Below are positions 18,711-52,759 of a DNA stretch of 64,000 nt, one piece after another. This stretch comes from an uncultured Gemmatimonadales bacterium (GTDB lineage Bacteria > Gemmatimonadota > Gemmatimonadetes > Gemmatimonadales > GWC2-71-9), in contig CAVQWA010000056.1 of the NCBI GenBank assembly GCA_963717315.1, positions 5,960 to 69,959 on the forward strand, in the 5' to 3' direction. How positions within the stretch are numbered: position 1 is the first letter of the stretch; every line of letters starts with the position of its first letter. The translations under genes and the position numbers were made by a program. The notes below the pieces were generated by a model. It saw only the letters and a program-made list of their open reading frames with translations. It was not told the DNA's origin and made no database searches.

Positions 18711-18741
18711 CGCGGTTCCGGGAGGCGGGGGAGGCGCTCCG

Positions 18742-28318: not shown

Positions 28319-28983
28319 CGCCCTGCTCCTCCCGCCGTGTCGCCCAGGCTCGCCCACAGCTGCTGCGCCGCGTAGGCCCGCCAGGTCCGCCAGCGCTCCG
28401 CCGCCCCGCGCAGTGCCGCCTCCGTGATCCCGCCCATCGCCTTCCGGAGCCCAAGGTCGCCGGCCGGGAAGGCGTCCCGCCAGCCGAGCGCAGGCATCGC
28501 GACGTACTCCGCCGTCCAGGCCCCGATGCCGGGGAGGGCGGTGAACCGACGAATGAACTCCTCCGGCTCCGGCACGGACCCGTCGCCCGCGAGTTCCGGA
28601 AGGTCGCCGTCCGCCACCGCACGGGCCAGTGATACCAGGCACGCCGCCCGCGCCCGCGGGATCCCGATGCTGGCGATCGCGGCCGGCCGGGCCGCCGCGA
28701 GCCGCTCCGGCACGACTGGCAGGTGGGTCAGCACCACGGGCACCGCCCCCTCCTCCTGGAGGATCGGCTCGCCCACCAGCCGCACCAGCCGCCCCGCGAT
28801 CGTATGCACCGAACGCCTTCCTTTCATCCCGGAGCATCGCCTCCGCATCCCGCGCACCACTTCCCGGTTCCTGCGATCGAAGCGCCGGGGATTCCCGCGC
28901 AAGATCCGGGGCGCGGGCGTGGCGGGCCGGACGTAACGTGGACCCCTGCGAACGGTCACACCATTACCCACGGACGAAACCAT
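28315..28983 (-). CDS. alkA: DNA-3-methyladenine glycosylase II family (AlkA-like, HhH-GPD)
   Basis: HhH-GPD region TIAGRLVRLVGEP...LPGIGAWTAEYVAM...RDAFPAGDLGLRK. The stop overlaps the ogt start (ATGA). ATG 28983 is proposed as the start; the N-terminus is divergent. Confidence 0.7.
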   Translation of the reverse strand: MVSSVGNGVTVRRGPRYVRPATPAPRILRGNPRRFDRRNREVVRGMRRRCSGMKGRRSVHTIAGRLVRLVGEPILQEEGAVPVVLTHLPVVPERLAAARPAAIASIGIPRARAACLVSLARAVADGDLPELAGDGSVPEPEEFIRRFTALPGIGAWTAEYVAMPALGWRDAFPAGDLGLRKAMGGITEAALRGAAERWRTWRAYAAQQLWASLGDTAGGAGR

Positions 28984-29860
28984 GCAGGCTGCCACGCACG
29001 CCGCCGCCCCCGCCATCACCCACCCCACCGGCCGCCACGTGGACGTCGGCGCAACCCGTCTTTGGATCGAGGAGGAGGGCCAGGGCGAACCGCTCCTCCT
29101 GCTCGCCGGCGGGCCGGCCAACTCGCACCTCACCTTTCACCCGTACTTCTCGGCGCTGGCCGACGCGTACCGGGTGATCTACGTGGACTACCGCGGCCGG
29201 GGACGGAGCGCGCCGGTGGCGACCCGCGAGAGGTCACCTTCGCAGGGGACGTCGCCGACATCGCCGCCCTTATCGACGCGCTCGACCATCCCGCGCTGGT
29301 GCGCCGCCTGGTGCTCGCCAACACCGTGCACAGCGCGGAGATGTGGCAGAAGAGCCACGAGAACACCAATCGCGAGCTCGAGCTCCAGCACCCCGGGGTG
29401 TGGGACGAGATCCTGGCGCTCCGGGCCGGGGGCGTCCGGTCCACCTACCCGCGGATGCAGAGGCTGTACGCCGTGCACTCGAGGCTGGTGCGCTTCTACA
29501 ACCCCGACAATGCCGTGAAGCTGCTGACCGAGCCGGGATCGCGGAACGCGGAGCTCTACCCGGTCTTCGCCGGCGACGACGTCGAGTTCTTCATCGGCGG
29601 CGAGGTGGCACGGCTCCCCGACTTCCGCCCGCGGCTCAGGGAGCTCGCGATGCCCACGCTCATCCTCGCCGGCCGCTCCGACCGCGCACTCTACCCGAAG
29701 TACCAGTACCAGTTCGCCCAGCGCCGCGCCGCAGGCGGAGTTCACCTGGATGGAGCGGAGCGGCACGTTCGCGCACATCGAGGAACCGGACGCCGTGATG
29801 GCGTTGCTCAGGCGGTTCCTGCGCGGAAGAACCTCGCCGCCATCCGGACCATCGTGTTGA
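28982..29860 (+). pseudogene. decayed alpha/beta-hydrolase gene (two frame changes, nucleophile segment missing)
   Basis: Frame 2 reads MQAATHAA...VIYVDYRGRGRSAPV. Frame 1 then reads DPREVTFAGDVADIAALIDALD-HPALVRRLVLANT...LILAGRSDRALYPKYQYQFAQR. Frame 2 then reads APQAEFTWMERSGTFAHIEEPDAVMALLRRFL. No GxSxG elbow between ALIDAL and VRRLVL. Confidence 0.6.
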
Positions 29861-34386: not shown

Positions 34387-35769
34387 TCAGCTCGGCGCGC
34401 CGAGCAGCGCGCGGGTCTCCTGGATCAGCGCCTCCGCCTCCCCGGCGGTGGGCGCCTCGGCGATGAGCCGGACGATCGGCTCCGTCCCCGAGGGACGGAG
34501 GTGCAGCCACCGGTCCGCCCAGCCGAGGCGGAGCCCGTCCCGTTCATCCACCTCGGCGTCCGGGTGCCGGGCCCGGAGCGCCGCAGAGGCCGCCCCCAGG
34601 TCGGACCGGGGCGCCTTGGCCTTCACGATGCAATACCGCGGGGCGGCCTGCACGAGCTCCGACACCCGCCGGCCGGTGCTGGCCAGGAGGGTCAGGAGCA
34701 GTGCCGCCGCCAGCGGGGCGTCCCGGCCGATGTGGAGGGCCGGGAGGATGACCCCGCCGTTCCCCTCGCCGCCGATGACGGCCCCCTCGTCCCGCATCAT
34801 CCGGGCCACGTTGGCCTCCCCGACGGGCGCCCGGAGGTACCGCGCCCCCGCCTCCCGGGCGGCGTCGGCGACGACGAGGGAGGTGGAGAGGTTGGCGACG
34901 ACGGTCGGACGGTCGGACTGTCCGACTGCCCGACTGCCCGACTGTCCCAGCACCGCCCTCACCGCGAACGCCAGCGTGTAGTCCTCCCCGATCGGCTGGC
35001 CGGTCTCGTCCACGATGGCCAGGCGGTCCACGTCGGGGTCCACGGCGATTCCCACGTCGGCGCCGGCCGCGCGCACGAGACGCCCGAGGTCGCCGAGATG
35101 TTCCGGGAGCGGTTCCGGCGGGCGGGGGAAGCGGCCGTCGGTCTCGAGGTTGATGCCTGCCACCCGGCAGCCGAGCCGCTCGAGCAGCGCCGGCATCGTC
35201 GTCCCGCCGGCGCCGCGGACGCAATCGAGCGCCACGGTGAAGTGCCTCGCGCGCACGGTGGCCGCATCCACCTCCGGCAGCGCGAGCACCAGGTCGAGGT
35301 GCCGGGCGATCGCTCCGGCGTCGTCCTCCAACGCGCCGATCCCGTCCCACCCCGCGCGGGCGGGCCCCTCCTCCGCCAGCGCGCGCACCCGGGCGCCCGC
35401 CTCCGCGTCGAGGAAGATCCCGTCCGGGCCCACGAACTTGAGCGCGTTCCACTCGATCGGGTTGTGGCTCGCGGTGAGGATGAGGCCCGCCCCGGCGTGG
35501 TGGTGCTCCACCGCGAGCTGTACCGTGGGCGTGGGGGCGACGCCCACGTCGATCACCCGCGCGCCCACCGACATCAGCCCCGCGGCCGCCGCGCGCGCGA
35601 ACATCGGGCCGCTGGTGCGCGCGTCCCGCCCCAGCACCACCGCCGGCCGGCCGTTCGCCGCGGCCCAGGCGCCGAGCGCGGCGGCATGCCGGGCCACCCG
35701 CTCCGGCGTCAGGTCGGTCCCGACCAGTCCCCGCATCCCGGAGACGCTGATCATCAGGGTGTCGGACAT
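34387..35769 (-). CDS. glmM: phosphoglucosamine/phosphohexose mutase (GlmM-type)
   Basis: ATG 35769 (MSDTLMISVSGMRG). Active-site TASHNPIEWNALK. Metal site DPDVDR. GGEGNGG. This is only the C-terminal third of the 1377-aa ORF in the track. Confidence 0.9.
   Translation of the reverse strand: MSDTLMISVSGMRGLVGTDLTPERVARHAAALGAWAAANGRPAVVLGRDARTSGPMFARAAAAGLMSVGARVIDVGVAPTPTVQLAVEHHHAGAGLILTASHNPIEWNALKFVGPDGIFLDAEAGARVRALAEEGPARAGWDGIGALEDDAGAIARHLDLVLALPEVDAATVRARHFTVALDCVRGAGGTTMPALLERLGCRVAGINLETDGRFPRPPEPLPEHLGDLGRLVRAAGADVGIAVDPDVDRLAIVDETGQPIGEDYTLAFAVRAVLGQSGSRAVGQSDRPTVVANLSTSLVVADAAREAGARYLRAPVGEANVARMMRDEGAVIGGEGNGGVILPALHIGRDAPLAAALLLTLLASTGRRVSELVQAAPRYCIVKAKAPRSDLGAASAALRARHPDAEVDERDGLRLGWADRWLHLRPSGTEPIVRLIAEAPTAGEAEALIQETRALLGAPS
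34899..34948. repeat. octamer palindrome embedded in frame inside glmM
   Basis: gacggtcggacggtcggac-t-gtccgactgcccgactgcccgactgtccc. Translated on the coding strand as ...GQSGSRAVGQSDRP... Confidence 0.9.
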
Positions 35770-35780
35770 CGCGCCGGCCG

Positions 35781-36851
35781 TCAGCTCGAGGAGGCGATCG
35801 GGAGGAGTGCGGGATCGGGAAAGGCGGCCTGGAAGGCGTCCACCACCACGGGATCGAACTGGGAGCCGGTGTGGCGGCGAAGCTCCTCCATCGCGTTGGC
35901 GGGCTCGCGCGCCTCGCGGTAGGCGCGGTTCGTGGTCATCGCGTCGAAGGCGTCCACCACGGCGACGATCCGGGCCTCGAGCGGGATCCGCTCGCCGGCG
36001 AGGCCGTCGGGGAACCCGCGCCCGTCGAGCCGCTCGTGGTGCGACCGGACGATCTGCATCACCGCGGTGCGGTCGCGGAGGAGTGGGGCCAGGATCCGCT
36101 CCCCGTCGGTGGTGTGGCGCTGGATCACCGCGAACTCCTCGTCGGTGAGCGGCCCCGGCTTGTGCAGGATGTGGTCCGCCGTGCCGATCTTGCCGATGTC
36201 GTGGAGCTCGCCGCCGAGCCTCACCTGCTCGAGCCGCTCGCCGGTGAGGCCGAGCCGGACCGCCGTGCCCACGGCATAGCGCGCCACCCGCTGCGAATGC
36301 CCCCGGGTGTAGCTGTCGCGCGCCTCGAGCAGGCGCACCGCGAGCTGGATCTGCTCGACGAAGAGCTCGCGGTTCCGCGCCGTCAGCTCCCGCACCCGCG
36401 ACTCGAGCTGGAGCTGGTAGTACCGGTTCTGGAGCCGGAGCTCGTGTTTCTCCAGCGCCTGGTTCACCCGCGCCCGGAGCTCGTCCACCAGCACCGGCTT
36501 GGACAGGTAGTCGATCGCGCCGTGCTGGAGGCAGTCCACCGCCGTCTGCACCTCCGCCAGGCCGGACAGCATGATCACGACCGTGTCGGGCCGCTTCTCG
36601 CGCAGCACCCGGAGGAGGGCGATCCCGTCCATCCCCGGCATCTGGATGTCGGAGATGACCAGCGGCACGTCGCCGAGCTGTTCCAGGAGCGCGAGCGCCT
36701 CCTCCCCGCCGGCCGCCTCGCGGCAGGCAATGCCGAGGCTCTCGACCATCCGCGTGACCGCCCGCCGGACCACCGGTTCGTCGTCCACCACCAGGCAGCG
36801 GATCGGGGAGCCCCCTCCGTCCGTCGAGGGGCCCGGAAAGGGCTGGGCCAT
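35781..36851 (-). CDS. response regulator with HD-GYP phosphodiesterase domain (RpfG-like)
   Basis: REC (LVVDDEP...VISDIQMPGMDG...YLSKP) followed by HD-GYP (GGELHDIGKIG...HHERLDGRGFPDG). Confidence 0.9.
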   Translation of the reverse strand: MAQPFPGPSTDGGGSPIRCLVVDDEPVVRRAVTRMVESLGIACREAAGGEEALALLEQLGDVPLVISDIQMPGMDGIALLRVLREKRPDTVVIMLSGLAEVQTAVDCLQHGAIDYLSKPVLVDELRARVNQALEKHELRLQNRYYQLQLESRVRELTARNRELFVEQIQLAVRLLEARDSYTRGHSQRVARYAVGTAVRLGLTGERLEQVRLGGELHDIGKIGTADHILHKPGPLTDEEFAVIQRHTTDGERILAPLLRDRTAVMQIVRSHHERLDGRGFPDGLAGERIPLEARIVAVVDAFDAMTTNRAYREAREPANAMEELRRHTGSQFDPVVVDAFQAAFPDPALLPIASSS

Positions 36852-36957: not shown

Positions 36958-38130
36958 ATGACCCACGTTGAGCCCAGCGACATCGATCACGCCCTCGCCA
37001 CCCGGGCGGTGCACGCCGGCCAGGCGCCGGACCCCCTCTCCGGGGCGGTGATGACGCCGATCTACCAGACGAGCACCTACGTCCAGGAAGGGCTTGGCAG
37101 GAACAAGGGCTACGAGTACGGCCGCACCCGGAACCCCACCCGCGACGCGCTCGAGCGGAACATCGCGAGCCTCGAGGGGGGAGCGAACGGGTTCGCCTTC
37201 GCCTCCGGCCTCGCGGCCACCGACGCGGTGATGAAGCTGCTCAAGGCCGGCGACCACGTCGTCTGCGGGGAGAACGTGTACGGCGGCACCCACCGGCTGA
37301 TCGAGCGGATCTACGGCCCCCTCGGCATCCAGGTGACCTTCGCCGACCTGCGCGACGTGGCCAATGCCGAGCGCGCCATCACGCCCGCCACCCGGATGCT
37401 GTACGCCGAAACCCCCACCAACCCGATGATGGCGCTCTGCGACCTCTCGGCGGTGGGCGACCTGGCGCAGGCCCGCGGGCTCCTCTTCGTGGTGGACAAC
37501 ACCTTCGCGACTCCGGTCTTCCAGCGCCCCCTCTCGCTCGGCGCCGACGTGGTGCTTCACTCCACCACCAAGTACCTGAACGGCCATAGCGACATGGTGG
37601 GCGGGATGCTGGTGACGAGCCGCGACGACCTCGCCGAGCGGTTCGCGTTCATCCAGAACGCCTCGGGGGCGGTGCCGGGGCCGTTCGACTGCTGGCTGGC
37701 GCTCCGCGGCACCAAGACCCTCCCGCTCCGGATGAAGCAGCACGATGCCAACGGCCGCGCGGTCGCGGCGTGGCTCAAGGGGCGGAAGGAGGTCGTGAAG
37801 CTCTACTATCCCGGCCTCCCGGATCATCCGCAGCACGAGCTGGCGGCACGGCAGATGAGCGGCTTCGGCGGGATGATCTCGCTCGACCTGGGCGACGCCG
37901 AGCGGGCCCGCCGGTTCGTCGGCGCCACGAAGCTCTTCGCCCTTGCCGAGTCGCTCGGCGGGGTGGAGAGCCTGATCGGGCATCCGGCCTCGATGACCCA
38001 CGCCTCGGTGCCGAAGCCGATGCGGGAGGCGATGGGCCTCACCGACAGCCTGGTGCGGCTCTCGTGCGGGATCGAGGAGGTGGGGGACCTGGTTGCGGAC
38101 CTGGAGCAGGCGTTCGGGGCGAGTCGGTGA
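36958..38130 (+). CDS. cystathionine gamma-synthase/beta-lyase family PLP enzyme
   Basis: ATG 36958 (MTHVEPSD). TRAVHAG...IYQTSTY...HSTTKYLNGHSD (PLP lysine)...RLSCGIE. Confidence 0.92.
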   Translation: MTHVEPSDIDHALATRAVHAGQAPDPLSGAVMTPIYQTSTYVQEGLGRNKGYEYGRTRNPTRDALERNIASLEGGANGFAFASGLAATDAVMKLLKAGDHVVCGENVYGGTHRLIERIYGPLGIQVTFADLRDVANAERAITPATRMLYAETPTNPMMALCDLSAVGDLAQARGLLFVVDNTFATPVFQRPLSLGADVVLHSTTKYLNGHSDMVGGMLVTSRDDLAERFAFIQNASGAVPGPFDCWLALRGTKTLPLRMKQHDANGRAVAAWLKGRKEVVKLYYPGLPDHPQHELAARQMSGFGGMISLDLGDAERARRFVGATKLFALAESLGGVESLIGHPASMTHASVPKPMREAMGLTDSLVRLSCGIEEVGDLVADLEQAFGASR

Positions 38131-38205
38131 GTCGAACGGTCGGACAGGAACCGCCCGACCGCCGACTGTCCGACTGTCGGACTGTTCGACCGCCGTACTG
38201 TCGCA
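38122..38205. repeat. nested inverted octamer (GTCGGAC/GTCCGAC) repeats
   Basis: gtcgaacggtcggacagg...ccgactgtccgac-t-gtcggactgttcgac. Central perfect palindrome gtccgac-t-gtcggac. Starts within the stop region of the upstream gene. Confidence 0.88.
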
Positions 38206-38266
38206 ACTTGAAACACCCCGGGCGGCTCTACCGTAAGGGGGCCAGCCCTCACCCGGAGTCCCGGCC

Positions 38267-39286
38267 ATGACCACCATCCCCGCCCCCCGGCCCCGCGTCG
38301 CCTTCCCCGGCATCTCGGGCGTCTCGTGGGAGCATCCCGCCGACCGCGCGGCACTGCAGGCGCTGCGCTCCATGCCCGGCTTCGACGAGGCGGTCCGGAA
38401 GATCATCTCCTTCATCGGCGGGGAGCGGGGCGTCCGGCTCCTCTTCCAGGGGAACGCGGTGCGCGCAGGCGCCGACCAGTTCCCCCGGCTCCACGCCCTC
38501 CACGTCGAGAACGTCGCCACCTTCGACTGGCCCGAGATTCCCGAGCTCTACGTCTCCCAGACGCCGGTCTTCAACGCCGGCGCCTACGGGGTGGACCATC
38601 CCTTCATCGTGATCCACTCCGCCGCGCTCGAGCTCCTCACCGAGGACGAGCTCCGGGTGCTGCTGGCCCACGAGATGGGCCACGTGGTGAGCGGCCACGC
38701 CCTCTACCGCACCATCGCCGCGATCCTGCTGGCGGTGAGCTTCTCCGCGCTCCCGATCCTCGCCGGCATCGCGCTCCTCCCGATCCGGCTCGCGATCCTC
38801 GAGTGGAGCCGGAAGGCGGAGCTCTCGGCCGACCGCGCGGGGCTCCTCGGCAGCCAGGACGTGCGCGCCACCCAGTCGCTCTTCCTCAAGATGGCCGGCG
38901 GGGTGCACGAGGGTCAGCTCTCCGGCGAGCCGATGAACCTCGACCGGTTCATCGCCCAGGCGCACGAGTACGCCGCGAGCAGCGAGGGGCTCGACCTGCT
39001 CTACAAGATCCTCAACACCCTCGCGCTCTCCCACCCGATGCACACCATCCGCGCCGCGGAGCTGCAGCGCTGGGTGGCGAGCGGCGAGTACGAGCGGATC
39101 CTGCGGGGCGAGTACGTCCGCCGCGGGCACGAGCAGCAGGAGCGGCCGGTCGGGCCCGACCTGAAGGAGGCCGGCGCCTACTACGCGCAGGAGGCGCGGG
39201 AGGTGGCCGGGAAGGTGGCCGACGCCGCGAAGAGGGCGGCGGAGATGGCCCAGGAGGCCTTCCGGAAGGCGCAGCAGAAGGCGTGA
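38267..39286 (+). CDS. M48-family zinc metallopeptidase
   Basis: HEMGH motif (LLAHEMGHVVSGH). Downstream E (ELSADRAG). Hydrophobic segment between them. Confidence 0.88.
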   Translation: MTTIPAPRPRVAFPGISGVSWEHPADRAALQALRSMPGFDEAVRKIISFIGGERGVRLLFQGNAVRAGADQFPRLHALHVENVATFDWPEIPELYVSQTPVFNAGAYGVDHPFIVIHSAALELLTEDELRVLLAHEMGHVVSGHALYRTIAAILLAVSFSALPILAGIALLPIRLAILEWSRKAELSADRAGLLGSQDVRATQSLFLKMAGGVHEGQLSGEPMNLDRFIAQAHEYAASSEGLDLLYKILNTLALSHPMHTIRAAELQRWVASGEYERILRGEYVRRGHEQQERPVGPDLKEAGAYYAQEAREVAGKVADAAKRAAEMAQEAFRKAQQKA

Positions 39287-41490
39287 GGATCCTGGTCGTC
39301 GGCGGCGGCGGCCGCGAGCACGCGCTCTGCTGGGCGGCGCGCCGCGAGCATCCCGAGGCCGAGCTCTGGTGCGCGCCGGGGAACCCCGGCACCGCCGCCG
39401 TCGCGACCAACCTCCCCGTCGCGGCCGACGATCTCGGCGGGATCGTCGCGGCCGCGCGGGAGCACACCACCCACCTCGTCATCGTCGGCCCCGAGGCGCC
39501 GCTGGCACTGGGCCTCGCCGACCGGCTCCGCGCCGAGCGTTGCCCCGTGTTCGGGCCCTCCGCCGCCGCCGCGCGGCTCGAGGCCTCCAAGGCGTTCGCC
39601 AAGGAGGTGATGGCGCACGCCGGGGTGCCCACCGCCGCGAGCCGCACCTTCACCGACGGCACGGCGGCGCTGGCGTACGTGGCGGCGCACGCGGAGCCGC
39701 TCGTGGTGAAGGCGTCGGGCCTCGCCGCCGGGAAGGGCGCGATCGTCTGCGCCACGCGGGCCGAGGCCGAGGCTGCGGTGCGTGCGATGCTGGTGGAGGG
39801 AAAGTTCGGCGAGGCGGGGCGCACCGTGGTGGTGGAGGAGTTCCTCCGGGGCGAGGAGCTCTCGGTGCTCGCCATCACCGACGGGGAGGAGGTGGTGCTC
39901 CTCCCGCCGTCGCAGGACCACAAGCGGCTGGGCGAGGGCGACACCGGCCCGAACACCGGCGGGATGGGCGCCTACAGCCCCGTGGCCATCGCCACCCCCG
40001 CGCTCCTCGGCCGCGCCATCTCCACGGTGATCAAGCCCACGCTCGCGGCACTCCGCGACCTCGGCGCCCCGTTCAGCGGGCTCCTCTACGCCGGGCTGAT
40101 GGTGGAGGAGGACGGCACGATCAACGTGGTGGAGTTCAACTGCCGCTTCGGCGACCCCGAGGCGCAGGTGGTGCTGCCGCTGGTGCGGGAGGGGTTCACG
40201 GACTGCCTCCTCGCGGTGGCGGAGGGGAGGTCACCCACCCCGTTGAGGCTGAGCCGGGACGCCGCGGTCACCACCGTGCTCGCCGCGCGGGGCTATCCCG
40301 ACGCACCGGAAAAGGGTGCCGCCATCACCATCCCCACGGACCTCCCCGCCGGCGTGACCGTCTTCCACGCCGGCACCAATCGTGACGCCGACGGCACCCT
40401 CCGGGTGAATGGCGGCCGGGTCCTCAACGTCACCGCCGTGGCGCCGACGTTCGAGGCGGCGCAGTTCCTCAGCCGCGACGCCGCCGACCGCATCGCGTTC
40501 GAGGGGAAGACCTGGCGGCGGGACGTGGGGTGGCGGGAGGCCGAGCGGCGGACGGGCGGGAAGGCGGCGGGAGCGGCGGGTTGCGCCCTCCTGCAACTCG
40601 CCGTCCCGCCCTCCCGCCGCCTATTCTTCCCCCGTGCCCGAGCTCCCCGAAGTCGAGACCATCGTCCGCGACATCCGGCCCCGCCTGGTGGGCCGGACCA
40701 TCACGCGGGCTTCCCTCTCCCACGACGACGTCCTCCGCGGGGTCACGAAGCGGAGGCTCCTCGCCGCCCTCGCGGGCGCGCGGATCGTGGCGGTCGAGCG
40801 CCGGGCCAAGCACGCCGTCCTCACCCTGCTCCCCTCTCCCCTCTCCCCTCTCCCCTCTCCCCGACTCGTCATCCAGCCCGGCATGTCCGGCTCCCTCATC
40901 GTCCACGACGCGCCCCTCCGGCGGGCCCAGGCCGCGTACGCCGTCCTCCGCGCCCCGCTCGACGACGGCGCCGAGCTGGTCTACCGCGACGTGCGCCGGC
41001 TCGGCACCCTGCTCCTCCTCGACACCGGGGGCTGGGCCGCGTACGACGCCGCCATCGGGCCGGAGCCGCTGGCCCCCGACTGGACGCCGGAGGCTCTCCT
41101 TCGCACCTTGAAAGGAAGTCGGCAGGCGGTGAAGAAGGTGCTGATGGACCAGCGGAAGGTCGCGGGAGTGGGGAACATCTACGCCAACGAGGCGCTCTGG
41201 GCCGCACGGGTGGACCCGTCCCGCCCCGCCTGCCGGGTCACCCCCGCGGAGGCGGAGGCGCTGCACGGCCACGTGCGCCGGATCCTCGCCGCCGCCATCC
41301 ACTCCAAGGGCACCACGCTCCGCGACTATCGCACCGGCACCGGCGGGCGGGGCAGCTTCCAGCTCGAGCTCTTCGTCTACGGGCGGGAGGGAGAGCCCTG
41401 CCGCGCCTGCGGCACGCGGCTCGCCGGCACCCACGCCATCGACGCGCGCATCACCGTCTTCTGCCACCGCTGCCAGGCCTGAACGAGTGA
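39283..41490 (+). CDS. purD: phosphoribosylamine--glycine ligase PurD; homology ends near 40560 but the frame has no stop until 41490
   Basis: GTG overlaps the M48 stop (GTGA). MRILVVGGGGREHALCW...full ATP-grasp...FEGKTWRRDVGWREAER matches the usual PurD C-terminus. The frame then runs through a hairpin repeat and across mutM out of frame. Confidence 0.85.
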   Translation: MRILVVGGGGREHALCWAARREHPEAELWCAPGNPGTAAVATNLPVAADDLGGIVAAAREHTTHLVIVGPEAPLALGLADRLRAERCPVFGPSAAAARLEASKAFAKEVMAHAGVPTAASRTFTDGTAALAYVAAHAEPLVVKASGLAAGKGAIVCATRAEAEAAVRAMLVEGKFGEAGRTVVVEEFLRGEELSVLAITDGEEVVLLPPSQDHKRLGEGDTGPNTGGMGAYSPVAIATPALLGRAISTVIKPTLAALRDLGAPFSGLLYAGLMVEEDGTINVVEFNCRFGDPEAQVVLPLVREGFTDCLLAVAEGRSPTPLRLSRDAAVTTVLAARGYPDAPEKGAAITIPTDLPAGVTVFHAGTNRDADGTLRVNGGRVLNVTAVAPTFEAAQFLSRDAADRIAFEGKTWRRDVGWREAERRTGGKAAGAAGCALLQLAVPPSRRLFFPRARAPRSRDHRPRHPAPPGGPDHHAGFPLPRRRPPRGHEAEAPRRPRGRADRGGRAPGQARRPHPAPLSPLPSPLSPTRHPARHVRLPHRPRRAPPAGPGRVRRPPRPARRRRRAGLPRRAPARHPAPPRHRGLGRVRRRHRAGAAGPRLDAGGSPSHLERKSAGGEEGADGPAEGRGSGEHLRQRGALGRTGGPVPPRLPGHPRGGGGAARPRAPDPRRRHPLQGHHAPRLSHRHRRAGQLPARALRLRAGGRALPRLRHAARRHPRHRRAHHRLLPPLPGLNE
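40563..40621. repeat. GC-rich inverted repeat at the expected purD end
   Basis: ggcggcgggag (40563..40573) is the exact reverse complement of ctcccgccgcc (40611..40621). Flanked by GGGA/GGCG-type short repeats. Confidence 0.75.
40634..41482 (+). CDS. mutM: formamidopyrimidine-DNA glycosylase
   Basis: GTG 40634 gives (M)PELPEVETIVRDI. RRAKH...GMSGSL. H2TH KVLMDQRKVAGVGNIYANEALW. C-terminal zinc finger CRACGTRL...FCHRCQ. Confidence 0.88.
   Translation: MPELPEVETIVRDIRPRLVGRTITRASLSHDDVLRGVTKRRLLAALAGARIVAVERRAKHAVLTLLPSPLSPLPSPRLVIQPGMSGSLIVHDAPLRRAQAAYAVLRAPLDDGAELVYRDVRRLGTLLLLDTGGWAAYDAAIGPEPLAPDWTPEALLRTLKGSRQAVKKVLMDQRKVAGVGNIYANEALWAARVDPSRPACRVTPAEAEALHGHVRRILAAAIHSKGTTLRDYRTGTGGRGSFQLELFVYGREGEPCRACGTRLAGTHAIDARITVFCHRCQA
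40831..40862. repeat. (CCCCTCT)x4 heptamer array embedded in frame inside mutM
   Basis: cccctctcccctctcccctctcccctctcccc. Encodes LPSPLSPLPSP between RRAKHAVLTL and RLVIQPGMSGSL. Confidence 0.9.
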
Positions 41491-42566
41491 CCGCGGTCCT
41501 CCCCTTCGCCGCCGCCGACCACGAGGTGCTGCTCGAGCGGGTGAAGCGGCTGGCGGAGAACCGGCCGGGGACCTATCGCATGACCGACGAGGCGGGCCGG
41601 CTGCTCTACGTCGGCAAGGCCAAGCGGCTCCGCACCCGGCTCCTCACCTATTTCCGCGCCGCTCCCGAGGACAAGGCCGCCCGGATCCTCCAGGCGGCGC
41701 GGAACGTCGCCTGGGAATACGCGCCGAGCGAGTTCGCCGCGGGGCTCGCCGAGCTGCGGCTCATCCGCCGCCACCGGCCGCCGTACAACGTGCAGTACAA
41801 CCGGAACCGGCGGCTCGCCTTCGTCCGGGTCACCGCGGAGGCCGCCCCGCGGGTCCTCGTGGCGGCGGCGCCGGGCGAGAGCGGCCGGAGCTACGGGCCG
41901 TTCGCCGCGCCCTCGCGCGTGACCGAGGCGGTGCGGGTGCTCGGCGACCTGCTCGGCCTCCGGGACTGCGGCGCGAAGATGCCGGTGGTCTTCGCCGCGC
42001 AGGAGGACCTCTTCACGGCGCCGGCGCTGGCCGCCTGTCCCCGGCACGCCTTCGGCACCTGCGCCGGGCCGTGCGCCGGGCTGGTGGCGCAGGCCGCATA
42101 CGCGGCGCGGGTCGAGGCGGCCGCCGCCTTCCTCGAGGGCCGCGCCGTCCGGCCGATCGACCGCGCGGTGGCCGAGATGGCCCGCGCCGCCGGCCAGGAG
42201 GAATTCGAACTCGCGCTGAGGTGGCGCGAGCGCTACGAGGCGCTCGAGTGGCTGCTCGCCACGGTGGCCCGCGCGCGCGCCGCGCGGGACCTCCTCACGT
42301 TCGTCTACCGCGACACCGGGGCCCACGGCGACGACCGGGCCTACCTCGTCCGCGGCGGCGAGGTGCGCGCCGCCTTCCCCTGGCCCGGCACCCCGATCGA
42401 GGCGGAGGCGTTCCGCGCCGTCGTCCGGGAGGAGCTCGCCCGGCCGATGGACCCGACCGGCCCGCTCCCCCTCGACCGGGCGGACGAGATCCTGCTGGTG
42501 ATGAGCTGGTTCCGCCGGCACCCGGAGGCCCTTCGCCGGACAACGCCGCTCGCGGAATGGACCTAG
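41487..42566 (+). CDS. UvrC-like GIY-YIG nuclease domain protein (Cho-like)
   Basis: GIY-YIG module GTYRMTDEAGRLLYVGKAKRLRTRLLTYF...EFAAGLAELRLIRRHRPPYN. Shorter than full UvrC. Confidence 0.8.
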   Translation: MTAVLPFAAADHEVLLERVKRLAENRPGTYRMTDEAGRLLYVGKAKRLRTRLLTYFRAAPEDKAARILQAARNVAWEYAPSEFAAGLAELRLIRRHRPPYNVQYNRNRRLAFVRVTAEAAPRVLVAAAPGESGRSYGPFAAPSRVTEAVRVLGDLLGLRDCGAKMPVVFAAQEDLFTAPALAACPRHAFGTCAGPCAGLVAQAAYAARVEAAAAFLEGRAVRPIDRAVAEMARAAGQEEFELALRWRERYEALEWLLATVARARAARDLLTFVYRDTGAHGDDRAYLVRGGEVRAAFPWPGTPIEAEAFRAVVREELARPMDPTGPLPLDRADEILLVMSWFRRHPEALRRTTPLAEWT

Positions 42567-42586
42567 AGAGGGGAGAGGGGAGAGGG
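42567..42586. repeat. (GGGGAGA)x~2.7 directly after the stop at 42566
   Basis: agaggggagaggggagaggg. Confidence 0.85.
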
Positions 42587-42604
42587 CCCCCCCACCACAC
42601 CCCC

Positions 42605-42775
42605 CCGACTCTCCGACTGTCCGACCGTCCGACCGTCCGACCGTCCGACTGTCCGACCGTCCGACCGTCCGACCGTCCGACCGTCCGACTGTCCGACCGT
42701 CCGACCGTCCGACCGTCCGACCGTCCGACCGTCCGACTGTCCGACCGTCCGACCGTCCGACTGTCCGACTCCGAC
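42605..42775. repeat. 21-unit phased octamer array (CCGACYGT) plus one truncated unit
   Basis: CCGAC recurs every 8 bp from 42605 to 42765 (21 units). The spacer alternates CGT/TGT. A final out-of-phase CCGAC lies at 42771. Confidence 0.95.
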
Positions 42776-42859
42776 CCTGAAACTTCCCCCGTCACCCGGC
42801 CGTGAGCCCCCCGTCGCCTCCTTCGAGGTGCCGATGCGCCGCTCGCCCTGCTGGCCGCC

Positions 42860-43306
42860 GTGGCGGCCGCCATTCACGCCGCCCCCGCCGCCGCGCAGTC
42901 CGCGCCGGCCGCGCGGGACGACCCGCTCAACGTCGGCCGGAAGGGCGTGCAGTGGGTCCACGATCAACCGCTCGACAGCCTGTGGAATCGCATCGACGAG
43001 CGGATGCAGGGCGCGCTGGGGTCGAAGGACGGGCTGCAGCAGCAGATCGACCGGATCGGCATCACCTTCGGGGCCGAGGTCGAGGTGGTCGAGGAAACGG
43101 TGGGCGCGAAGGACGGGAACCTGGTCCAGGCCCGCGAGGTCAAGTTCGAGGACGGACGGCTGAGCCGCCTCACTCCTCCCCCGCCGGCAGCAGCGGCATC
43201 AGCCGCCCGCGGGGGGGGATGCCCGGCTCGAGCTCGAGAATGCCGACGGAGGGCGGGAGCCCATCCTTCGTCTTCCTGCCCGCCGCCCCGGGGTTCATCA
43301 CGGTGA
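42860..43306 (+). CDS. hypothetical small (possibly secreted) protein
   Basis: Coding-like codon usage through ...DDPLNVGRKGVQWVHDQPLDSLWNRIDERMQGALGSKDGLQQQIDRIGITFGAEVEVVEE... An upstream in-frame RRLLRGADAPLALLAAVAAAIHAAPAAAQ looks like a signal peptide but has no canonical start. The 3' third overlaps the convergent gene and is probably not real. Confidence 0.4.
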   Translation: MAAAIHAAPAAAQSAPAARDDPLNVGRKGVQWVHDQPLDSLWNRIDERMQGALGSKDGLQQQIDRIGITFGAEVEVVEETVGAKDGNLVQAREVKFEDGRLSRLTPPPPAAAASAARGGGCPARARECRRRAGAHPSSSCPPPRGSSR

Positions 43307-45489: not shown

Positions 45490-46017
45490 ATGGCCGACCG
45501 CGATCACATCGTCGCCGCGATCCGTGCGAGCGGGAACTTCCAGTCCGAGGTGCGCTACATCGCGCGCGGGGGCTATGTCGTGGCCGATTCACCCCGGCTC
45601 TTCAAGCACCTCGAGAACGGCCTGGTCCGCGTCGTCTTCCCCACCACCGCCACGGAGATGAATGACGGCACCGTCGTGGCGATGGTCTGCCTCTGGGACT
45701 CGAACGAGGGGTACAACATCTACGCGCACACCATCTGCGCCGGCGGCGGGGTGAACATCCTGCTCCGGACGATGGACCACCCGATGCCGCAGGCCCTGCC
45801 CCAGCCGCTGCCCGAGGGGCCCCGCGCCATCCGGAAGTTCGTGGCCTGGAAGGAAGCCTCCTGGGTGAAGTTCCTGAACGACGAGCTCGCGGTCGGCAAC
45901 GCCCGCGCCTCGCGGCTCTGGATCGCGTGCTTCTGGAAGGCGCTGGACCGGATGTTCGGCGGCGGGAACCTGCTGGGCTTCGATCCCGAGGCGGAGATGC
46001 GGGCGGCGGAAGGCTGA
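45490..46017 (+). CDS. hypothetical protein
   Basis: ATG preceded by ggag. Coding-like composition. No family recognised. Opposite strand to the surrounding quinone genes. Confidence 0.65.
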   Translation: MADRDHIVAAIRASGNFQSEVRYIARGGYVVADSPRLFKHLENGLVRVVFPTTATEMNDGTVVAMVCLWDSNEGYNIYAHTICAGGGVNILLRTMDHPMPQALPQPLPEGPRAIRKFVAWKEASWVKFLNDELAVGNARASRLWIACFWKALDRMFGGGNLLGFDPEAEMRAAEG

Positions 46018-46086
46018 GGGGGGAGGGGAGAGGGGAGAGGGGGAGCGGCCCTCTCCCCTCTCCCCTCTCCCCTCTCCCCTCTCCCC
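46016..46086. repeat. G-arm/C-arm (GGGGAGA/TCTCCCC) hairpin between convergent stops
   Basis: 46016..46041 pairs with 46049..46074. Hand count: 25 Watson-Crick pairs plus one G-T, 7-nt loop. The C-arm extends to 46086. Confidence 0.95.
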
Positions 46087-47884: not shown

Positions 47885-47996
47885 AGGGGAGAGGGGAGAA
47901 GGGAGAGGGGAGACGGGAGATGGGGGGGAGGGCATCACGCGCTTGCGCCCACGGTGCGCGTGCCGACCTCTCCCCTCTCCCCTCTCCCCTCTCCCC
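47885..47996. repeat. split G-arm (x6) / C-arm (x4) heptamer inverted repeat between ubiE and ubiD
   Basis: aggggagaggggagaagggagaggggagacgggagatggggggg ...37 nt... cctctcccctctcccctctcccctctcccc. The C-arm lies inside the ubiE ORF tail. Confidence 0.9.
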
Positions 47997-48717
47997 GCTC
48001 CGCGACGTGCAGCGCCGTCGCCCCACCGAGCAGGAGCTCGTGCTCCGCGGCCCGGAAGCCGCACTGCCGGAGCAGGTCGTCCAGCGCCGCGGGCTCGGGG
48101 AAGTGACGGGCCGACTCTGGAAGCCAGGAGTAGGCGTCCGTATGTTTCGAGAAGAACCGGCCCACGCGCGGCAGCACGCGCTCGAAGTAGAGATTGTAGA
48201 GCCCGCGAAGCGGCTGGCGCGGGGGATGGCAGGTGTCCAGCAGGACGAGCCGCGCGCCCGGCTTGAGCACCCGCGCCACCTCGCGCAGCCCGGCCTCGAG
48301 GTCCATCAGGTTCCGGAGCCCCCACCCCACCATCGCGCCGTCGAAGGTGGCGTCGGGAAACGGCAGCTGGAGCGCGTCGGCGGTCACCGGCTGCAGTCCC
48401 GGCGCCTTGCCGCGCCCGAGCCGGAGCATCGGCAGGACGAAGTCGGCGGCGGTGATCTTCCCGCGGAACCCGGGCTGACGGGCCAGGGCGGCCGAGAAAT
48501 CGAGCGTGCCGGCGCAGAGGTCGAGGTAGTGACCGTCGGGACGGCGCTCCCATCCGAGCCGCCGCACCGCCACCTTCCGCCAGTGAATGTCCAGGCGGAA
48601 GCTGATGATGCGGTTGAGGCGGTCGTAGCTCGGGGCGATGGCGGTGAACATCCCCCGCACATAGGCCCGCTTCTCCGCTCCGCCCGCAACGGGCAACTGT
48701 CCACCGGAGGCCGACAT
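47935..48717 (-). CDS. ubiE: demethylmenaquinone/ubiquinone C-methyltransferase (UbiE/MenG)
   Basis: FTAIAPSYDRLNRIISF...YLDLCAGT SAM motif...LRNLMD. The final AERGEGRGERGEVGTRTVGASA is repeat-derived. Confidence 0.9.
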   Translation of the reverse strand: MSASGGQLPVAGGAEKRAYVRGMFTAIAPSYDRLNRIISFRLDIHWRKVAVRRLGWERRPDGHYLDLCAGTLDFSAALARQPGFRGKITAADFVLPMLRLGRGKAPGLQPVTADALQLPFPDATFDGAMVGWGLRNLMDLEAGLREVARVLKPGARLVLLDTCHPPRQPLRGLYNLYFERVLPRVGRFFSKHTDAYSWLPESARHFPEPAALDDLLRQCGFRAAEHELLLGGATALHVAERGEGRGERGEVGTRTVGASA

Positions 48718-51607: not shown

Positions 51608-52387
51608 ATGCGCTCGATGACCGTGGCCCGCCAGCAGCACGGCGAGACCCGGCTCCGCGCCGCCATCGGGTTCGGCGCCGGCGACGTCTCGATCCAGCCC
51701 GCCCCGGAGGGCACCCTCTACGCCGCGGACCTCACCTGGGACGCGGAGCGCTTCGCGCCCCGCACCCGCTACGATGCCGCCGCGGCGCACCTCTCCATCG
51801 CGCTCGAGCCCATCGGCGGCGGGGGGGTGCGCGTCGCCTCCACCCGCCACCTGGCGCAGCGGGCCGTGATCACGCTCTCCCCGACCGCCGAGCTCGACCT
51901 CGACGCCACGCTCGGCGCGGCGGACGCCACCCTCGAGCTGGGCGGGCTCCGCCTGGCGGAGCTCCGGGTCCGCACCGACGCGACGCGCGCCACGGTCCGG
52001 TTCAGCCGCCCGAATCCCGGGGCGTGCAGCCGGGCCGATTTCCGGGGCGGCGCCGCCGAGCTGGAGATTTCGCACCTGGGCGACGCCGGCTGCCGGGTGG
52101 TGCAGGTCGAGGGCGGCGTGGGCACCGTCACGCTCGACCTCGGCGGGGCGTGGCCCGCGGAGGCGAAGCTGGATGTCTCCGTCACCCTCGGCAGCGTCCG
52201 CCTCCGGGTGCCGCGGGACCTCGGCGTCAGGCTCACCCTGGAGCGATTCGTCGCGAGCTTCCAGCCCGCGGGGTTCGTCCAGGAGGGTGGCGCCTGGGTC
52301 ACCGAAGGCTACGCCTCGGCGGCCCGAAAGCTCGAGCTCCGCGTGGCCGCCACCGTCGGCGGCGTGCAGGTGGAGCGGGTGGAGTAG
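51608..52387 (+). CDS. toastrack/DUF2154-like beta-rich protein (possible frameshift from ATG 51541)
   Basis: Repeating LELGG..., VEGGVGTVTLDLGG, VTLGSVRLRVPRDLGV pattern. A signal peptide MRLPALAALALALVCAGSGGA is encoded from ATG 51541 in another frame and overlaps the upstream stop (ATGA). Confidence 0.7.
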   Translation: MRSMTVARQQHGETRLRAAIGFGAGDVSIQPAPEGTLYAADLTWDAERFAPRTRYDAAAAHLSIALEPIGGGGVRVASTRHLAQRAVITLSPTAELDLDATLGAADATLELGGLRLAELRVRTDATRATVRFSRPNPGACSRADFRGGAAELEISHLGDAGCRVVQVEGGVGTVTLDLGGAWPAEAKLDVSVTLGSVRLRVPRDLGVRLTLERFVASFQPAGFVQEGGAWVTEGYASAARKLELRVAATVGGVQVERVE

Positions 52388-52477
52388 TCGCGAGTCACGA
52401 GTCGCGAGACGCGAGTCGCGAGTCGCGAGACGCGAGTCACGAGTCGCGAGTCGCGAGTCGCGAGTCGCGAGTCACAC
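52387..52477. repeat. (GTCGCGA)n heptamer array, 12 units plus 1 degenerate
   Basis: Units gtcgcga/gtcacga/gacgcga, in phase from the last base of the stop codon at 52387. Confidence 0.95.
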
Positions 52478-52523
52478 CTCCCGCTCCCCGTTCCCCGTTC
52501 CCCGTCCGTGTTCCCCGTTCCCT
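52478..52523. repeat. (TCCCCGT)n heptamer array, about 6 units, contiguous with the previous array
   Basis: ctcccgc tccccgt tccccgt tccccgt ccgtgt tccccgt tccctcg. Confidence 0.9.
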
Positions 52524-52620: not shown

Positions 52621-52725
52621 TTCGCCTTCCCCGCCGCCGCTCCCCGCGCGCCGGCACCACCGCCCCGGCGTCGCGCACCGCAGCCGCCTCGATCGCGGCC
52701 ACTTCCGTGGCCTCCATCCGGCAGT

Positions 52726-52759
52726 CCCCTCCCCCTTCTCCCCTCTCCCCTCTCCCCTC
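52726..52759. repeat. (CCCCTCT)-type heptamer array, about 4.5 units
   Basis: cccctcccccttctcccctctcccctctcccctc. Confidence 0.88.

What the first reader, a model, noticed from the sequence alone, without database searches (positions are those of the whole stretch)
40540..41490. purD has no stop codon at its expected end; the frame runs ~930 bp further, across a hairpin and all of mutM
PurD homology ends at ...RRDVGWREAER (about 40555). No stop occurs in any forward frame over the next ~80 nt. The purD frame stays open to 41490, as the supplied 38326..41490 ORF confirms. The expected end is occupied by a GC inverted repeat: 40563..40573 is the exact reverse complement of 40611..40621. Either a repeat insertion erased the stop, or there is a sequence error. 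The first case would leave ribosomes to read into mutM out of frame or rely on structure-induced rescue.
Basis: seen in the sequence. Interest (0 to 1): 0.6.

Follow-up and report, generated by a model that had tools for sequence, protein, structure and literature searches.

The report
purD stop lost in repeat hairpin
In this soil bacterium (Gemmatimonadales) the purine gene purD has no stop codon because its end lies in a fast-changing repeat hairpin that supplies the stop in all relatives; the long read-on across mutM is what chance predicts in such GC-rich DNA, so this is a one-off stop loss or a small sequence error.

Summary
purD (GTG 39283) loses homology at about 40548-40554, and its frame stays open to TGA 41488-41490. 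No forward frame has a stop between 40407 and 41108. The inverted repeat 40563-73 / 40611-21 is exact and sits in a stable hairpin.

The purD-mutM spacer holds one copy of a window-wide family of hairpins. Their arms are tandem 7- or 8-nt units, and they sit at gene 3' ends. In the six closest relatives that keep mutM downstream, the same spacer carries a different version of this hairpin. In each, the purD stop lies inside the hairpin at a different place, giving tails of 7-22 aa. All 111 Gemmatimonadota purD ends I surveyed stop 3-35 codons after the GWRE motif. The window runs 313 codons.

The window's copy is short and poor in A and T, and it has no stop triplet. The run across mutM is expected: in that frame stops occur at 0.0016 per codon, so P(no stop across mutM) = 0.64. 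The extension has no coding signal, and mutM is intact.

Most likely this is a real, lineage-private stop loss (about 0.6). A consensus error in the hairpin loop is the main rival (about 0.3). Neither can be settled without reads. The repeat family resembles the heptamer repeats of Xanthomonas and Nostoc. Interest is modest.

The parts
39283..40554 (+). purD (phosphoribosylamine-glycine ligase), the part with homology: GTG start overlapping the stop of the upstream M48 peptidase gene; ends ...RRDVGWREAERR
   Evidence: Pfam GARS_N/A/C cover residues 1-418. 94-96% identical to the PurD proteins P0001, P0123, P0126 and P0127. The coding-potential segment is 39289-40569.
40555..41490 (+). Run-on of the purD frame (about 311 codons, Arg/Pro-rich) through the hairpin and all of mutM, ending at TGA 41488-41490, which overlaps the GTG start (41487) of the next gene
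   Evidence: No stop in this frame. Codon log-odds for the tail are -328.6 over 306 codons, so it is non-coding. No protein in 5.8 billion sequences matches the extension.
40552..40626 (+). Degenerate repeat hairpin filling the purD-mutM spacer. The left arm is G-rich and free of T (about 40552-40580). The loop holds a mini-hairpin (40580-40598). The right arm is C-rich (about 40600-40626). The exact 11-bp inverted repeat is 40563-73 / 40611-21.
   Evidence: fold at -63.9 kcal/mol, z = -4.2. TRF finds a period-9 array at 40543-80 and a period-8 array at 40599-618. The orthologous spacers of relatives are clearer octamer-repeat hairpins.
40582..40596 (+). Loop codons TGC (40582-84) and CAA (40594-96) in the purD frame. 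Each is one substitution from a stop (TGA, TAA). These are the most likely sites of the stop loss, or of a base error.
   Evidence: Read directly from the sequence. In relatives L082, L084 and L086 the stop lies at the equivalent top of the hairpin.
40634..41482 (+). mutM/fpg (formamidopyrimidine-DNA glycosylase), intact. This is the real coding frame of the stretch.
   Evidence: Pfam Fapy_DNA_glyco and H2TH. 85-90% identical to the MutM of four relatives along its full length. Coding potential +120. The exact 282-aa protein is in the public collection, from a 100,082-bp contig.
40824..40862 (+). Heptamer array (CCCTCTC x 5.4) inside mutM, encoding the variable loop LLPSPLSPLPSP. It uses the same unit as the intergenic hairpins.
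   Evidence: The alignment with relatives shows a loop of similar length and different sequence. An independent Logan contig breaks exactly here.
38267..39286 (+). M48 peptidase gene, whose stop overlaps the purD start (operon context)
   Evidence: The order M48-purD-mutM-uvrC-like is conserved in L082.
41487..42566 (+). uvrC-like gene, 4 nt after the mutM stop. Its GTG overlaps the TGA that finally ends the purD frame.
   Evidence: GIY-YIG, weak hit, and UvrC_M.

Best explanation
The purD-mutM spacer is one copy of a family of 3'-end hairpins built from tandem 7- or 8-nt units. The family is common in this window and in its close relatives. The elements start at or on stop codons, and they change quickly in unit sequence and copy number. 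Both arms change together, so the hairpin is kept.

In the close relatives, the natural purD stop is a TGA or TAG that belongs to the element. It lies in a repeat-unit variant such as GACTGACC or GGATAGAC, or in the loop. PurD therefore ends in a short, hypervariable tail encoded by the repeat. A 7- or 8-nt period is not a multiple of 3, so a unit that holds a stop triplet brings it into frame within a few units. The repeat can thus supply the stop.

In this lineage the copy has become short, degenerate and poor in A and T, and its left arm has no T at all. The last stop was lost, most simply by one substitution in the loop (TGA to TGC at 40582-84, or TAA to CAA at 40594-96).

The genome is 74% GC, and the purD frame puts the wobble position of mutM codons first in each triplet. 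A stop is therefore expected only about every 640 codons, and the frame runs on by chance to TGA 41488.

Shown: the anatomy, the comparison with relatives and the chance statistics.

Inferred: the four genes are packed so tightly (overlap of 4 nt, hairpin, gap of 4 nt) that there is no room for a promoter, so they are probably co-transcribed. Ribosomes then probably read through and make PurD with a roughly 311-residue junk tail. That product is likely unstable. Read-through also removes any termination-coupled start of mutM. The allele is probably neutral to mildly harmful and recent, not an adaptation.
For: - All 111 related purD genes stop 3-35 codons after GWRE. The window is the only exception.
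- Relatives 88-96% identical in PurD have seven or more different tails: AQRLGG, AQRRGGG, AARRADG, AERRTERREVGTTGSR, AGRRGGGQADRRTGGRNPPTA, AGRRTVGQSDGRTVGQRGGGVV and others.
- At the DNA level their spacers are octamer-repeat hairpins with different units. The stop lies in the left arm, the loop or the right arm. All of them fold, with z from -2.8 to -9.7.
- The window's arms differ from every relative but stay complementary: 11 bp exact, a bulge, then 6 bp.
- 21 of 62 genes in the window have their stop inside, or at most 12 nt before, a 7/8-nt array.
- The arrays occupy 5 of 5 convergent, 20 of 28 co-directional and 0 of 6 divergent spacers of at least 20 nt. Fisher p = 0.0009.
- A second orthologous spacer (38130-38258) also carries different repeat units in L085 than in the window and L082, with the stop in the first unit.
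- The neighbouring genes are intact and match relatives in length: 339, 282-287 and 359 aa. The region therefore shows no general sequence damage.
- An independent assembly of run ERR12036780 matches the window at 40853-42593 with 0 mismatches.
Against: - No independent sequence covers the junction itself. The Logan contig starts at 40853, and no protein with the extension exists in the collection.
- PurD is needed for de novo purine synthesis, and no relative tolerates the loss. This lowers the prior for a real, fixed stop loss.
- The contig appears to come from a metagenome, judging by its sources and its MAG relatives. Several hairpin alleles of this locus co-occur in a related sample (L081 and L086, both from GCA_046128585.1), so consensus problems in this hypervariable spot are conceivable.
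- Co-transcription and read-through translation are inferred, not observed.
Confidence: 0.6

Rival explanations
1. Consensus or assembly artefact. The real genome has a stop in the hairpin. The assembly either carries a single wrong base in the loop (for example TGA read as TGC at 40584, or TAA read as CAA at 40594), or it collapsed or mixed repeat units from co-existing strains. purD would then be normal, with a tail of about 10-20 aa.
For: - The window is the only one of 112 purD ends without a stop.
- The window's spacer is 16-49 nt shorter than in relatives: 106 nt against 122-155 nt from the GW codon to the mutM GTG.
- Short-read graphs do break at these repeats. Both ends of the Logan contig lie in heptamer arrays.
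- Different alleles of this hairpin co-occur in one metagenome.
- Four purD-frame codons in the spacer are one substitution from a stop (sequence).
Against: - An indel cannot restore a stop, because all three frames are open for at least 475 nt.
- The two arms are mutually complementary and unlike any relative, so most of the allele is genuine.
- The units here are degenerate and contain no exact repeat long enough to cause collapse (71% matches).
- The flanking genes are intact, and 1,741 nt nearby are confirmed with 0 mismatches.
- The only badly damaged gene in the window, the alpha/beta hydrolase, has multiple lesions typical of real decay rather than scattered errors.
Confidence: 0.3
2. 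Functional non-stop design. The hairpin defines the 3' end of the purD mRNA, by termination or by exonuclease trimming back to the stem. Ribosomes then run to the end of a stop-less message and are rescued by tmRNA or an alternative factor. This would make PurD output depend on trans-translation, or it would unfold the hairpin to switch on mutM.
For: - The hairpin family sits at gene 3' ends and is absent from divergent spacers, as expected for transcript-end or stabiliser elements.
- The window's hairpin is followed by TATTCTTC, with 5 T in 8 nt.
- From my own knowledge, not retrieved here: REP hairpins close to stop codons in E. coli cause stalling and tmRNA tagging (Liang, Rudd and Deutscher 2015).
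- STRR hairpins have been suggested to act in transcript stability or translational coupling (PMC2670836).
Against: - No relative shares the stop-less state, so it is not a conserved design.
- The terminator scan finds nothing in 39000-42000. In relatives the tail after the stem is CTACCCTT, which is not T-rich.
- mutM starts 8-12 nt after the stem with no room for a promoter, so an efficient transcript end here would silence mutM and the uvrC-like gene.
- Tagging would destroy a needed enzyme.
Confidence: 0.07
3. The extension is a real, selected part of PurD, or a gene overlapping mutM in another frame.
For: The frame is open for 311 codons and ends exactly on the GTGA junction of the next gene.
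Against: - The codon log-odds are strongly negative, -328.6.
- The composition is what reading a GC-rich gene out of frame gives.
- There is no homologue among 5.8 billion proteins, and no relative has the extension.
- Openness of this frame is expected by chance, P = 0.64.
Confidence: 0.02

Closest known systems
Heptameric G-rich simple-sequence repeats of Xanthomonas and Nostoc (GGGAATC / GGGGAYT; Rehm et al. 2015, PMC4692102) and the cyanobacterial STRR heptamer hairpins (described in PMC2670836)
   Same: - Tandem units of 7 nt (here 7 or 8), often G-rich on one arm and C-rich on the other.
- Spread over the sequence, mostly non-coding.
- Lying within 0-50 bp of, or overlapping, stop codons.
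- Common between aligned ORFs and rare between divergent ORFs.
- Inverted pairs can form stem-loops.
- Length and sequence vary between close relatives at the same spacer.
- Function unknown; transcript stability or translational coupling has been suggested.
(compared)
   Different: - A different phylum (Gemmatimonadota).
- Many unit types in one window (GGGGAGA, GGACAGTC, CGAAGGG, AGTCGCG, GAACGGG...), not one dominant unit.
- Octamers are as common as heptamers.
- Nearly all copies are arranged as long hairpins.
- In the sections I read, those papers report no case where such a repeat removed a gene's stop.
- G-quadruplex formation was not tested here.
REP/BIME elements of enterobacteria (own knowledge; not retrieved here)
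   Same: Intergenic, transcribed, imperfect palindromes inside operons and after genes. They stabilise upstream mRNA. When very close to a stop codon they can interfere with termination and trigger tmRNA action.
   Different: - REPs share a conserved consensus of about 35 nt and are linked to RAYT transposases.
- The elements here have no shared consensus, are built from tandem short units, and differ at orthologous sites.
- No transposase was seen.
Stop-loss (non-stop) mutations and ribosome rescue by tmRNA-SmpB (reviews PMC3985003 and PMC3949413 were listed but not read)
   Same: A gene whose stop is gone, with translation continuing into downstream sequence or to the mRNA end.
   Different: Here there is no evidence yet on the mRNA end or on tagging. 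The downstream sequence is another intact gene read out of frame, and the next stop is 313 codons after the GWRE motif only because of GC content.
Rho-independent terminators
   Same: A GC-rich stem-loop just after a coding region.
   Different: The stems are far longer (up to 50 pairs, with a mismatch every 7-8 nt). There is no consistent T-tract. Downstream genes start a few nt after the stem.

Membership tests
PurD (GARS, phosphoribosylamine-glycine ligase) | N, ATP-grasp (A) and C domains in order, full length | tested here: met
   Pfam GARS_N residues 1-100, GARS_A 101-294 and GARS_C 328-418, all over their full profile length. 94-96% identity to annotated ligases.
PurD (GARS, phosphoribosylamine-glycine ligase) | Ends a few residues after the C domain (tail of 3-35 aa after the GWRE motif in this phylum) | tested here: not met
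   The tail is 313 aa here, against 3-35 aa (median 7) in 111 relatives.
MutM/Fpg | N-terminal Met-Pro-Glu-Leu-Pro-Glu-Val (catalytic Pro after Met removal), an H2TH domain and a C-terminal zinc finger | tested here: met
   GTG 40634 gives M-PELPEVE. Pfam Fapy_DNA_glyco and H2TH match. The C-terminal CRACG...FCHRCQ is invariant in 5 sequences.
Heptamer/octamer tandem-repeat hairpins at gene 3' ends (STRR-like; Rehm et al. class) | Tandem units of 7-8 nt, at least 3 copies | tested here: inconclusive
   The family is clear elsewhere in the window (37 arrays). In the relatives' purD-mutM spacers it is also clear, with octamers in 4-9 copies per arm. The window's own copy is degenerate: period 9 x 4.1 at 71% matches, and period 8 x 2.5.
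Heptamer/octamer tandem-repeat hairpins at gene 3' ends (STRR-like; Rehm et al. class) | Two arrays in inverted orientation that form a stem-loop | tested here: met
   window z = -4.2, relatives z from -2.8 to -9.7.
Heptamer/octamer tandem-repeat hairpins at gene 3' ends (STRR-like; Rehm et al. class) | Placed at or within 50 nt of stop codons, between aligned or convergent genes and not between divergent genes | tested here: met
   21 of 62 stops lie in, or at most 12 nt before, an array. Arrays are in 25 of 33 spacers with a gene 3' end against 0 of 6 divergent spacers, p = 0.0009.
Heptamer/octamer tandem-repeat hairpins at gene 3' ends (STRR-like; Rehm et al. class) | Length and sequence vary between close relatives at the same spacer | tested here: met
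   purD-mutM spacer; the spacer upstream of the M48 gene.
REP/BIME | A shared consensus palindrome repeated across the genome | tested here: not met
   Units differ from site to site and between orthologous sites. No common consensus was found.
Rho-independent terminator | A short GC stem, a loop of 3-8 nt, then a T-tract | tested here: not met
   The scan of 39000-42000 found 0 sites. The tail is TATTCTTC here and CTACCCTT in relatives. The scan cannot handle bulged long stems, so weak termination is not excluded.
Natural tmRNA substrate (non-stop mRNA) | An mRNA 3' end inside the open frame, with an SsrA-tagged product | not testable with these tools
   This needs 3'-end mapping and tag capture. 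No tmRNA gene lies in the window, which says nothing either way.
Programmed frameshift or readthrough | A slippery site or leaky stop leading to a defined, conserved second product | tested here: not met
   There is no stop to read through. No stop occurs in any frame for at least 475 nt. The extension is not conserved.

The most novel reading that the evidence does not exclude
Gemmatimonadales carry a dense class of 3'-end hairpins built from tandem 7-8-nt units that, as far as my searches found, has not been described for this phylum. The hairpins overlie stop codons, supply the stop from their own units, keep rewriting the last 5-25 residues of many proteins, and occasionally delete a gene's stop or its 3' end. 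The stop-less purD would be a naturally occurring failure of this system. It is tolerated because read-through still yields active enzyme, and it may lower MutM output and so raise the mutation rate.
Probability: 0.25. Interest if true: 0.55.

Novelty: new member of a known kind. Interest (0 to 1): 0.3.

Why it matters
For annotation, a stop-less purD makes gene callers drop the gene. MutM, the M48 peptidase and the uvrC-like protein of this contig are in the public protein collection, but PurD is not. The genome would therefore be scored, wrongly, as lacking a step of purine synthesis.

For biology, the case shows how fast-evolving repeat hairpins that sit on stop codons can reshape protein C-termini, and now and then remove a stop. 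In a very GC-rich genome there is no back-up stop for hundreds of codons.

If the allele is real, it is a natural test of how a bacterium copes with a 300-residue junk tail on a housekeeping enzyme, and with ribosomes crossing the start of a DNA-repair gene out of frame.

If it is an error, it marks these hairpins as weak spots of metagenome assemblies.

Tried and rejected
- Exact look-ups of the window's 735-aa PurD read-through (V- and M-start) and of MutM found nothing on record. P0132, the 100%-identical GspE-REC protein from the source contig, could not be located either. I therefore never obtained the source contig's own gene calls or a second copy of the junction.
- A gapped DNA pattern anchored on GWRE and the mutM start found 0 matches in the metagenome contigs. 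The follow-up protein-anchored scan brought only one close relative, L087.
- My first coding-signal scan, using GC3 runs, was too noisy. I replaced it with a codon log-odds segment scan.
- MFE folding of every gene end was not discriminating, because everything folds at 74% GC. I replaced it with tandem-array positions.
- I suspected a second stop loss fusing a GspE ATPase to a receiver domain across repeats at 16908-16978. This is rejected: the roughly 750-aa fusion is conserved across Gemmatimonadales.
- I considered that the alpha/beta-hydrolase frameshifts signal a generally error-prone assembly. This is rejected: the gene has two shifts plus a deleted active-site segment, which indicates a real pseudogene, and about 60 other genes are intact.
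- Rfam gave no hit. There are no tRNA or tmRNA genes and no terminator or promoter matches.
- I looked for strand asymmetry of the hairpins, sense against antisense folding energy. There is no consistent trend.
- Literature searches found no description of these repeats in Gemmatimonadota and no directly usable paper on stop loss at high GC.
Full report
**1. The observation**

The window is 73.6% GC.
- purD begins at GTG 39283, overlapping the stop of an M48 peptidase gene. It carries complete GARS_N, GARS_A and GARS_C domains over residues 1-418.
- The conserved end ...DVGWREAER finishes at 40548.
- From there the frame has no stop until TGA 41488-41490. The other two forward frames are open as well: their first stops after 40406 are at 41109 and at 41480, the latter being the mutM stop.
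- 40563-40573 is the exact reverse complement of 40611-40621.
- The region folds far better than shuffled sequence: -69.3 kcal/mol, z = -3.8, 0 of 200 shuffles. A second fold gave z = -4.2.
- mutM starts at GTG 40634 (M-PELPEVE) and ends at 41482, wholly inside the purD run-on in another frame.

**2. What is and is not beyond chance**

I trained a codon log-odds scan on the window's own genes. It places the end of the purD coding signal at 40569 and scores the remaining 306 codons at -328.6. In about 60 other genes the signal ends 0-12 codons before the stop. The extension is therefore not coding sequence.

The purD frame is the +2 frame of mutM. The wobble base of each mutM codon, about 95% G or C, stands first in each purD-frame triplet.
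- Across 32 genes of the window this frame has 22 stops in 14,069 codons.
- The mean open run is 640 codons, and P(no stop across mutM) = 0.64.
- The 85-nt spacer is 78% GC. By composition alone it would lack a stop in one frame with P = 0.78, and in all three frames with P = 0.47.

Once the proper stop is missing, the 930-nt run-on needs no further explanation.

**3. Relatives**

The closest genomes are Gemmatimonadales MAGs. Across 111 Gemmatimonadota purD 3' ends from two collections, the tail after the D[IV]GWRE motif is 3-35 residues, with a median of 7. The window has 313 and is the only outlier.

A protein search found much closer relatives, 88-96% identical. All are 425-441 aa long.

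Their tails all differ:
- ...REAQRLGG
- ...REAQRRGGG
- ...REAARRADG
- ...REAERRTERREVGTTGSR
- ...REAGRRGGGQADRRTGGRNPPTA
- ...REAGRRTVGQSDGRTVGQRGGGVV

The order purD-mutM is kept in L081-L084 and L086, and the full M48-purD-mutM-uvrC-like order is seen in L082. L085 has a different gene downstream of purD.

**4. The element**

I aligned the spacers.

| Locus | Left-arm units | Right-arm units |
|---|---|---|
| L082 | (GGACAGTC) x 5 | (GACTGCCC) x 9 |
| L081 | GGACAGGC | CCGACCGC |
| L083 | GGATAGAC / GGGTGGAC | CCGTCTAC |
| L084 | a 16-nt unit | not resolved into units |

- All these spacers fold into long stems with a mismatch every eighth position: -59 to -98 kcal/mol, z from -2.8 to -9.7.
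- The purD stop lies inside the element each time, at a different place. It is a TAG in a left-arm unit (L083), a TAG at the top of the left arm (L084), and a TGA at the start of the right arm (L082, L086, L081).
- The arms differ between relatives but match within each relative, so the two arms change together.
- The window's copy is 106 nt from the GW codon to the mutM GTG, against 122-155 nt in relatives. It is degenerate (GGACGGGC GGGAAGGC GGCGGGAG CGGCGGG ...) and has no T in the left arm.
- In the purD frame the codons AAG (40561), GGA (40570), TGC (40582) and CAA (40594) are each one substitution from a stop. TGC and CAA lie in the loop, where L082, L084 and L086 have their stops.

**5. 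A window-wide family**

- The window holds 37 merged arrays of period 7 or 8 with at least 3 copies, or 0.58 per kb. Most are paired as hairpins, for example (GGGGAGA)n/(TCTCCCC)n at 46016-86, 47885-48001, 56203-85 and 60688-772.
- In 21 of 62 genes the stop lies inside, or at most 12 nt before, an array.
- Several ORFs run 12-34 codons into arrays before they stop.
- Arrays occupy 5 of 5 convergent and 20 of 28 co-directional spacers of at least 20 nt, but 0 of 6 divergent ones. Fisher p = 0.0009.
- The spacer before the M48 gene carries different units in L085 than in the window and L082, and the upstream gene's TGA lies in the first unit.

These are therefore elements of gene 3' ends that evolve quickly and commonly provide the stop. 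A 7- or 8-nt period is not a multiple of three, so a stop triplet in one unit comes into frame within a few units.

**6. Real or artefact**

For a genuine allele:
- The two arms are complementary to each other while differing from all relatives. Random errors would not produce this.
- The neighbouring genes are intact and of the expected lengths.
- An independent Logan assembly of run ERR12036780 matches the window at 40853-42593 without a mismatch.
- A frameshift error cannot be the cause, because no frame has a nearby stop.

Against a genuine allele:
- Nothing independent covers the junction. The Logan contig stops at the heptamer array inside mutM.
- The locus is hypervariable, and two alleles co-occur in one related metagenome.
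- One wrong base in the loop would be enough to remove a stop.
- PurD is a needed enzyme, and no relative lacks the stop.

I put a real stop loss at about 0.6 and an error at about 0.3.

The source's gene caller apparently kept mutM and dropped purD. The exact MutM, M48 and uvrC-like proteins of a 100,082-bp contig are in the public collection, but no PurD from it is, and no protein carries the extension.

**7. Likely consequences (inferred)**

M48 and purD overlap by 4 nt. The hairpin ends 8-12 nt before the mutM start, and mutM is followed after 4 nt by the uvrC-like gene. There is no room for promoters, so the four genes are probably one transcript and the hairpin is not an efficient terminator. 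No terminator-like site was found, and the relatives lack a T-tract.

Ribosomes would then read on and make PurD with a roughly 311-residue Arg/Pro-rich tail, ending at the GTGA junction of the next gene. In relatives, ribosomes stop inside the hairpin 40-100 nt before mutM, which could open the stem and help mutM to start. That coupling would be lost here.

The alternative is a transcript end at the hairpin with rescue by tmRNA. It is possible but less likely, and I could not test it.

**8. Comparison with what is known**

The family matches the heptameric G-rich repeats described in Xanthomonas and Nostoc. Those lie within 0-50 bp of, or overlapping, stop codons. They are common between aligned ORFs and rare between divergent ones, are transcribed, and vary between close relatives at the same spacer. 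Inverted pairs can form stem-loops, and their function is unknown (PMC4692102).

It also matches the cyanobacterial STRR hairpins of 7-bp repeats between genes, which have been suggested to act in transcript stability or translational coupling (PMC2670836).

It differs in four ways: the phylum, the many unit types, the frequent octamers, and the near-universal hairpin arrangement. It is not REP/BIME, because there is no shared consensus. Two searches found no description of such repeats in Gemmatimonadota.

The stop loss itself is an ordinary kind of event, made conspicuous by GC content.

**9. Verdict**

- The run-on is not a gene, not recoding and not a designed feature.
- It is a lineage-private stop-less allele, or a point error, in a hypervariable repeat hairpin that normally carries the purD stop.
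- Interest is about 0.3. The repeat family is the more interesting by-product.

Noticed in passing
window, e.g. 2412-2508, 3433-3536, 24584-24658, 25227-25331, 27720-27826, 42566-42769, 46016-46086, 47885-48001, 52386-52522, 56198-56293, 60688-60772: A dense family of hairpins whose arms are tandem 7- or 8-nt units (GGGGAGA/TCTCCCC, GGACAGTC/GACTGTCC, CGAAGGG, AGTCGCG, GAACGGG...). There are 37 arrays in 64 kb. They lie at gene 3' ends (25 of 33 spacers) and never in divergent spacers (0 of 6). They often overlap stop codons.
   Followed up: partly
window 40824-40862: The heptamer array (CCCTCTC x 5.4) lies inside mutM and encodes the loop LLPSPLSPLPSP. Relatives have PPAHRSPLTAH there. A change of copy number other than by 3 units would shift the mutM frame, so phase variation of a repair gene is conceivable. 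The independent Logan contig breaks exactly here.
   Followed up: partly
window 34899-34947 (- strand gene 34387-35793) and 52725-52759: Octamer (CGACTGTC x 6.1) and heptamer arrays lie inside coding regions. The first is in a phosphoglucosamine-mutase-like gene and gives ...GQSGSRAVGQSDRPTV... So the repeats also enter proteins internally.
   Followed up: no
window 28982-29800 (+): An alpha/beta-hydrolase pseudogene. It has two frame changes (near 29230 and 29725), and the segment that should hold the nucleophile motif between ...IDALD and HPALVRRLVLANT... is missing.
   Followed up: partly
window 42860-43306 (+) and 42566-42800: A small gene matches its L082 homologue (73% identity) only to residue 97. 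The last 44 residues of the homologue have no counterpart in any frame. The ORF runs 50 codons into the antisense of the convergent neighbour, which makes a second gene with a lost native 3' end. The methyltransferase gene that follows the uvrC-like gene in L082 is absent here. In its place is a 158-nt octamer array (x 19.8).
   Followed up: partly
window 16455-18821 (-): A GspE/PilB-type ATPase is fused to a response-regulator receiver domain through a Pro/Ala-rich linker that is encoded by repeats (16908-16978). The fusion, about 750 aa, is conserved across Gemmatimonadales.
   Followed up: yes
window 40554-40580 (+): The left arm of the purD-mutM hairpin has four GGG tracts with loops of 1, 8 and 6 nt (GGGCGGGAAGGCGGCGGGAGCGGCGGG). 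This is a borderline G-quadruplex motif on the mRNA strand, like the G4-forming heptamer repeats of Xanthomonas and Nostoc.
   Followed up: no
source records: The exact M48, MutM (282 aa) and uvrC-like proteins of a 100,082-bp contig are in the public protein collection, but no PurD from it is. The gene caller evidently could not keep both purD and mutM and dropped purD.
   Followed up: partly
L081 and L086 (both from GCA_046128585.1); L085 4220-4600: Two different alleles of the purD-mutM hairpin co-occur in one metagenome assembly. In L085 purD (95% identical) is followed by a different gene instead of mutM, so the locus is also rearranged in some strains.
   Followed up: no
L053, L075, L038, L041, L044, L062 (Anaerolineae and cyanobacterial loci fetched with purD): These unrelated loci also show period-7/8 arrays at 0.3-1 per kb. 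For the cyanobacteria this fits the known STRR repeats. It suggests that such arrays recur in several phyla.
   Followed up: no
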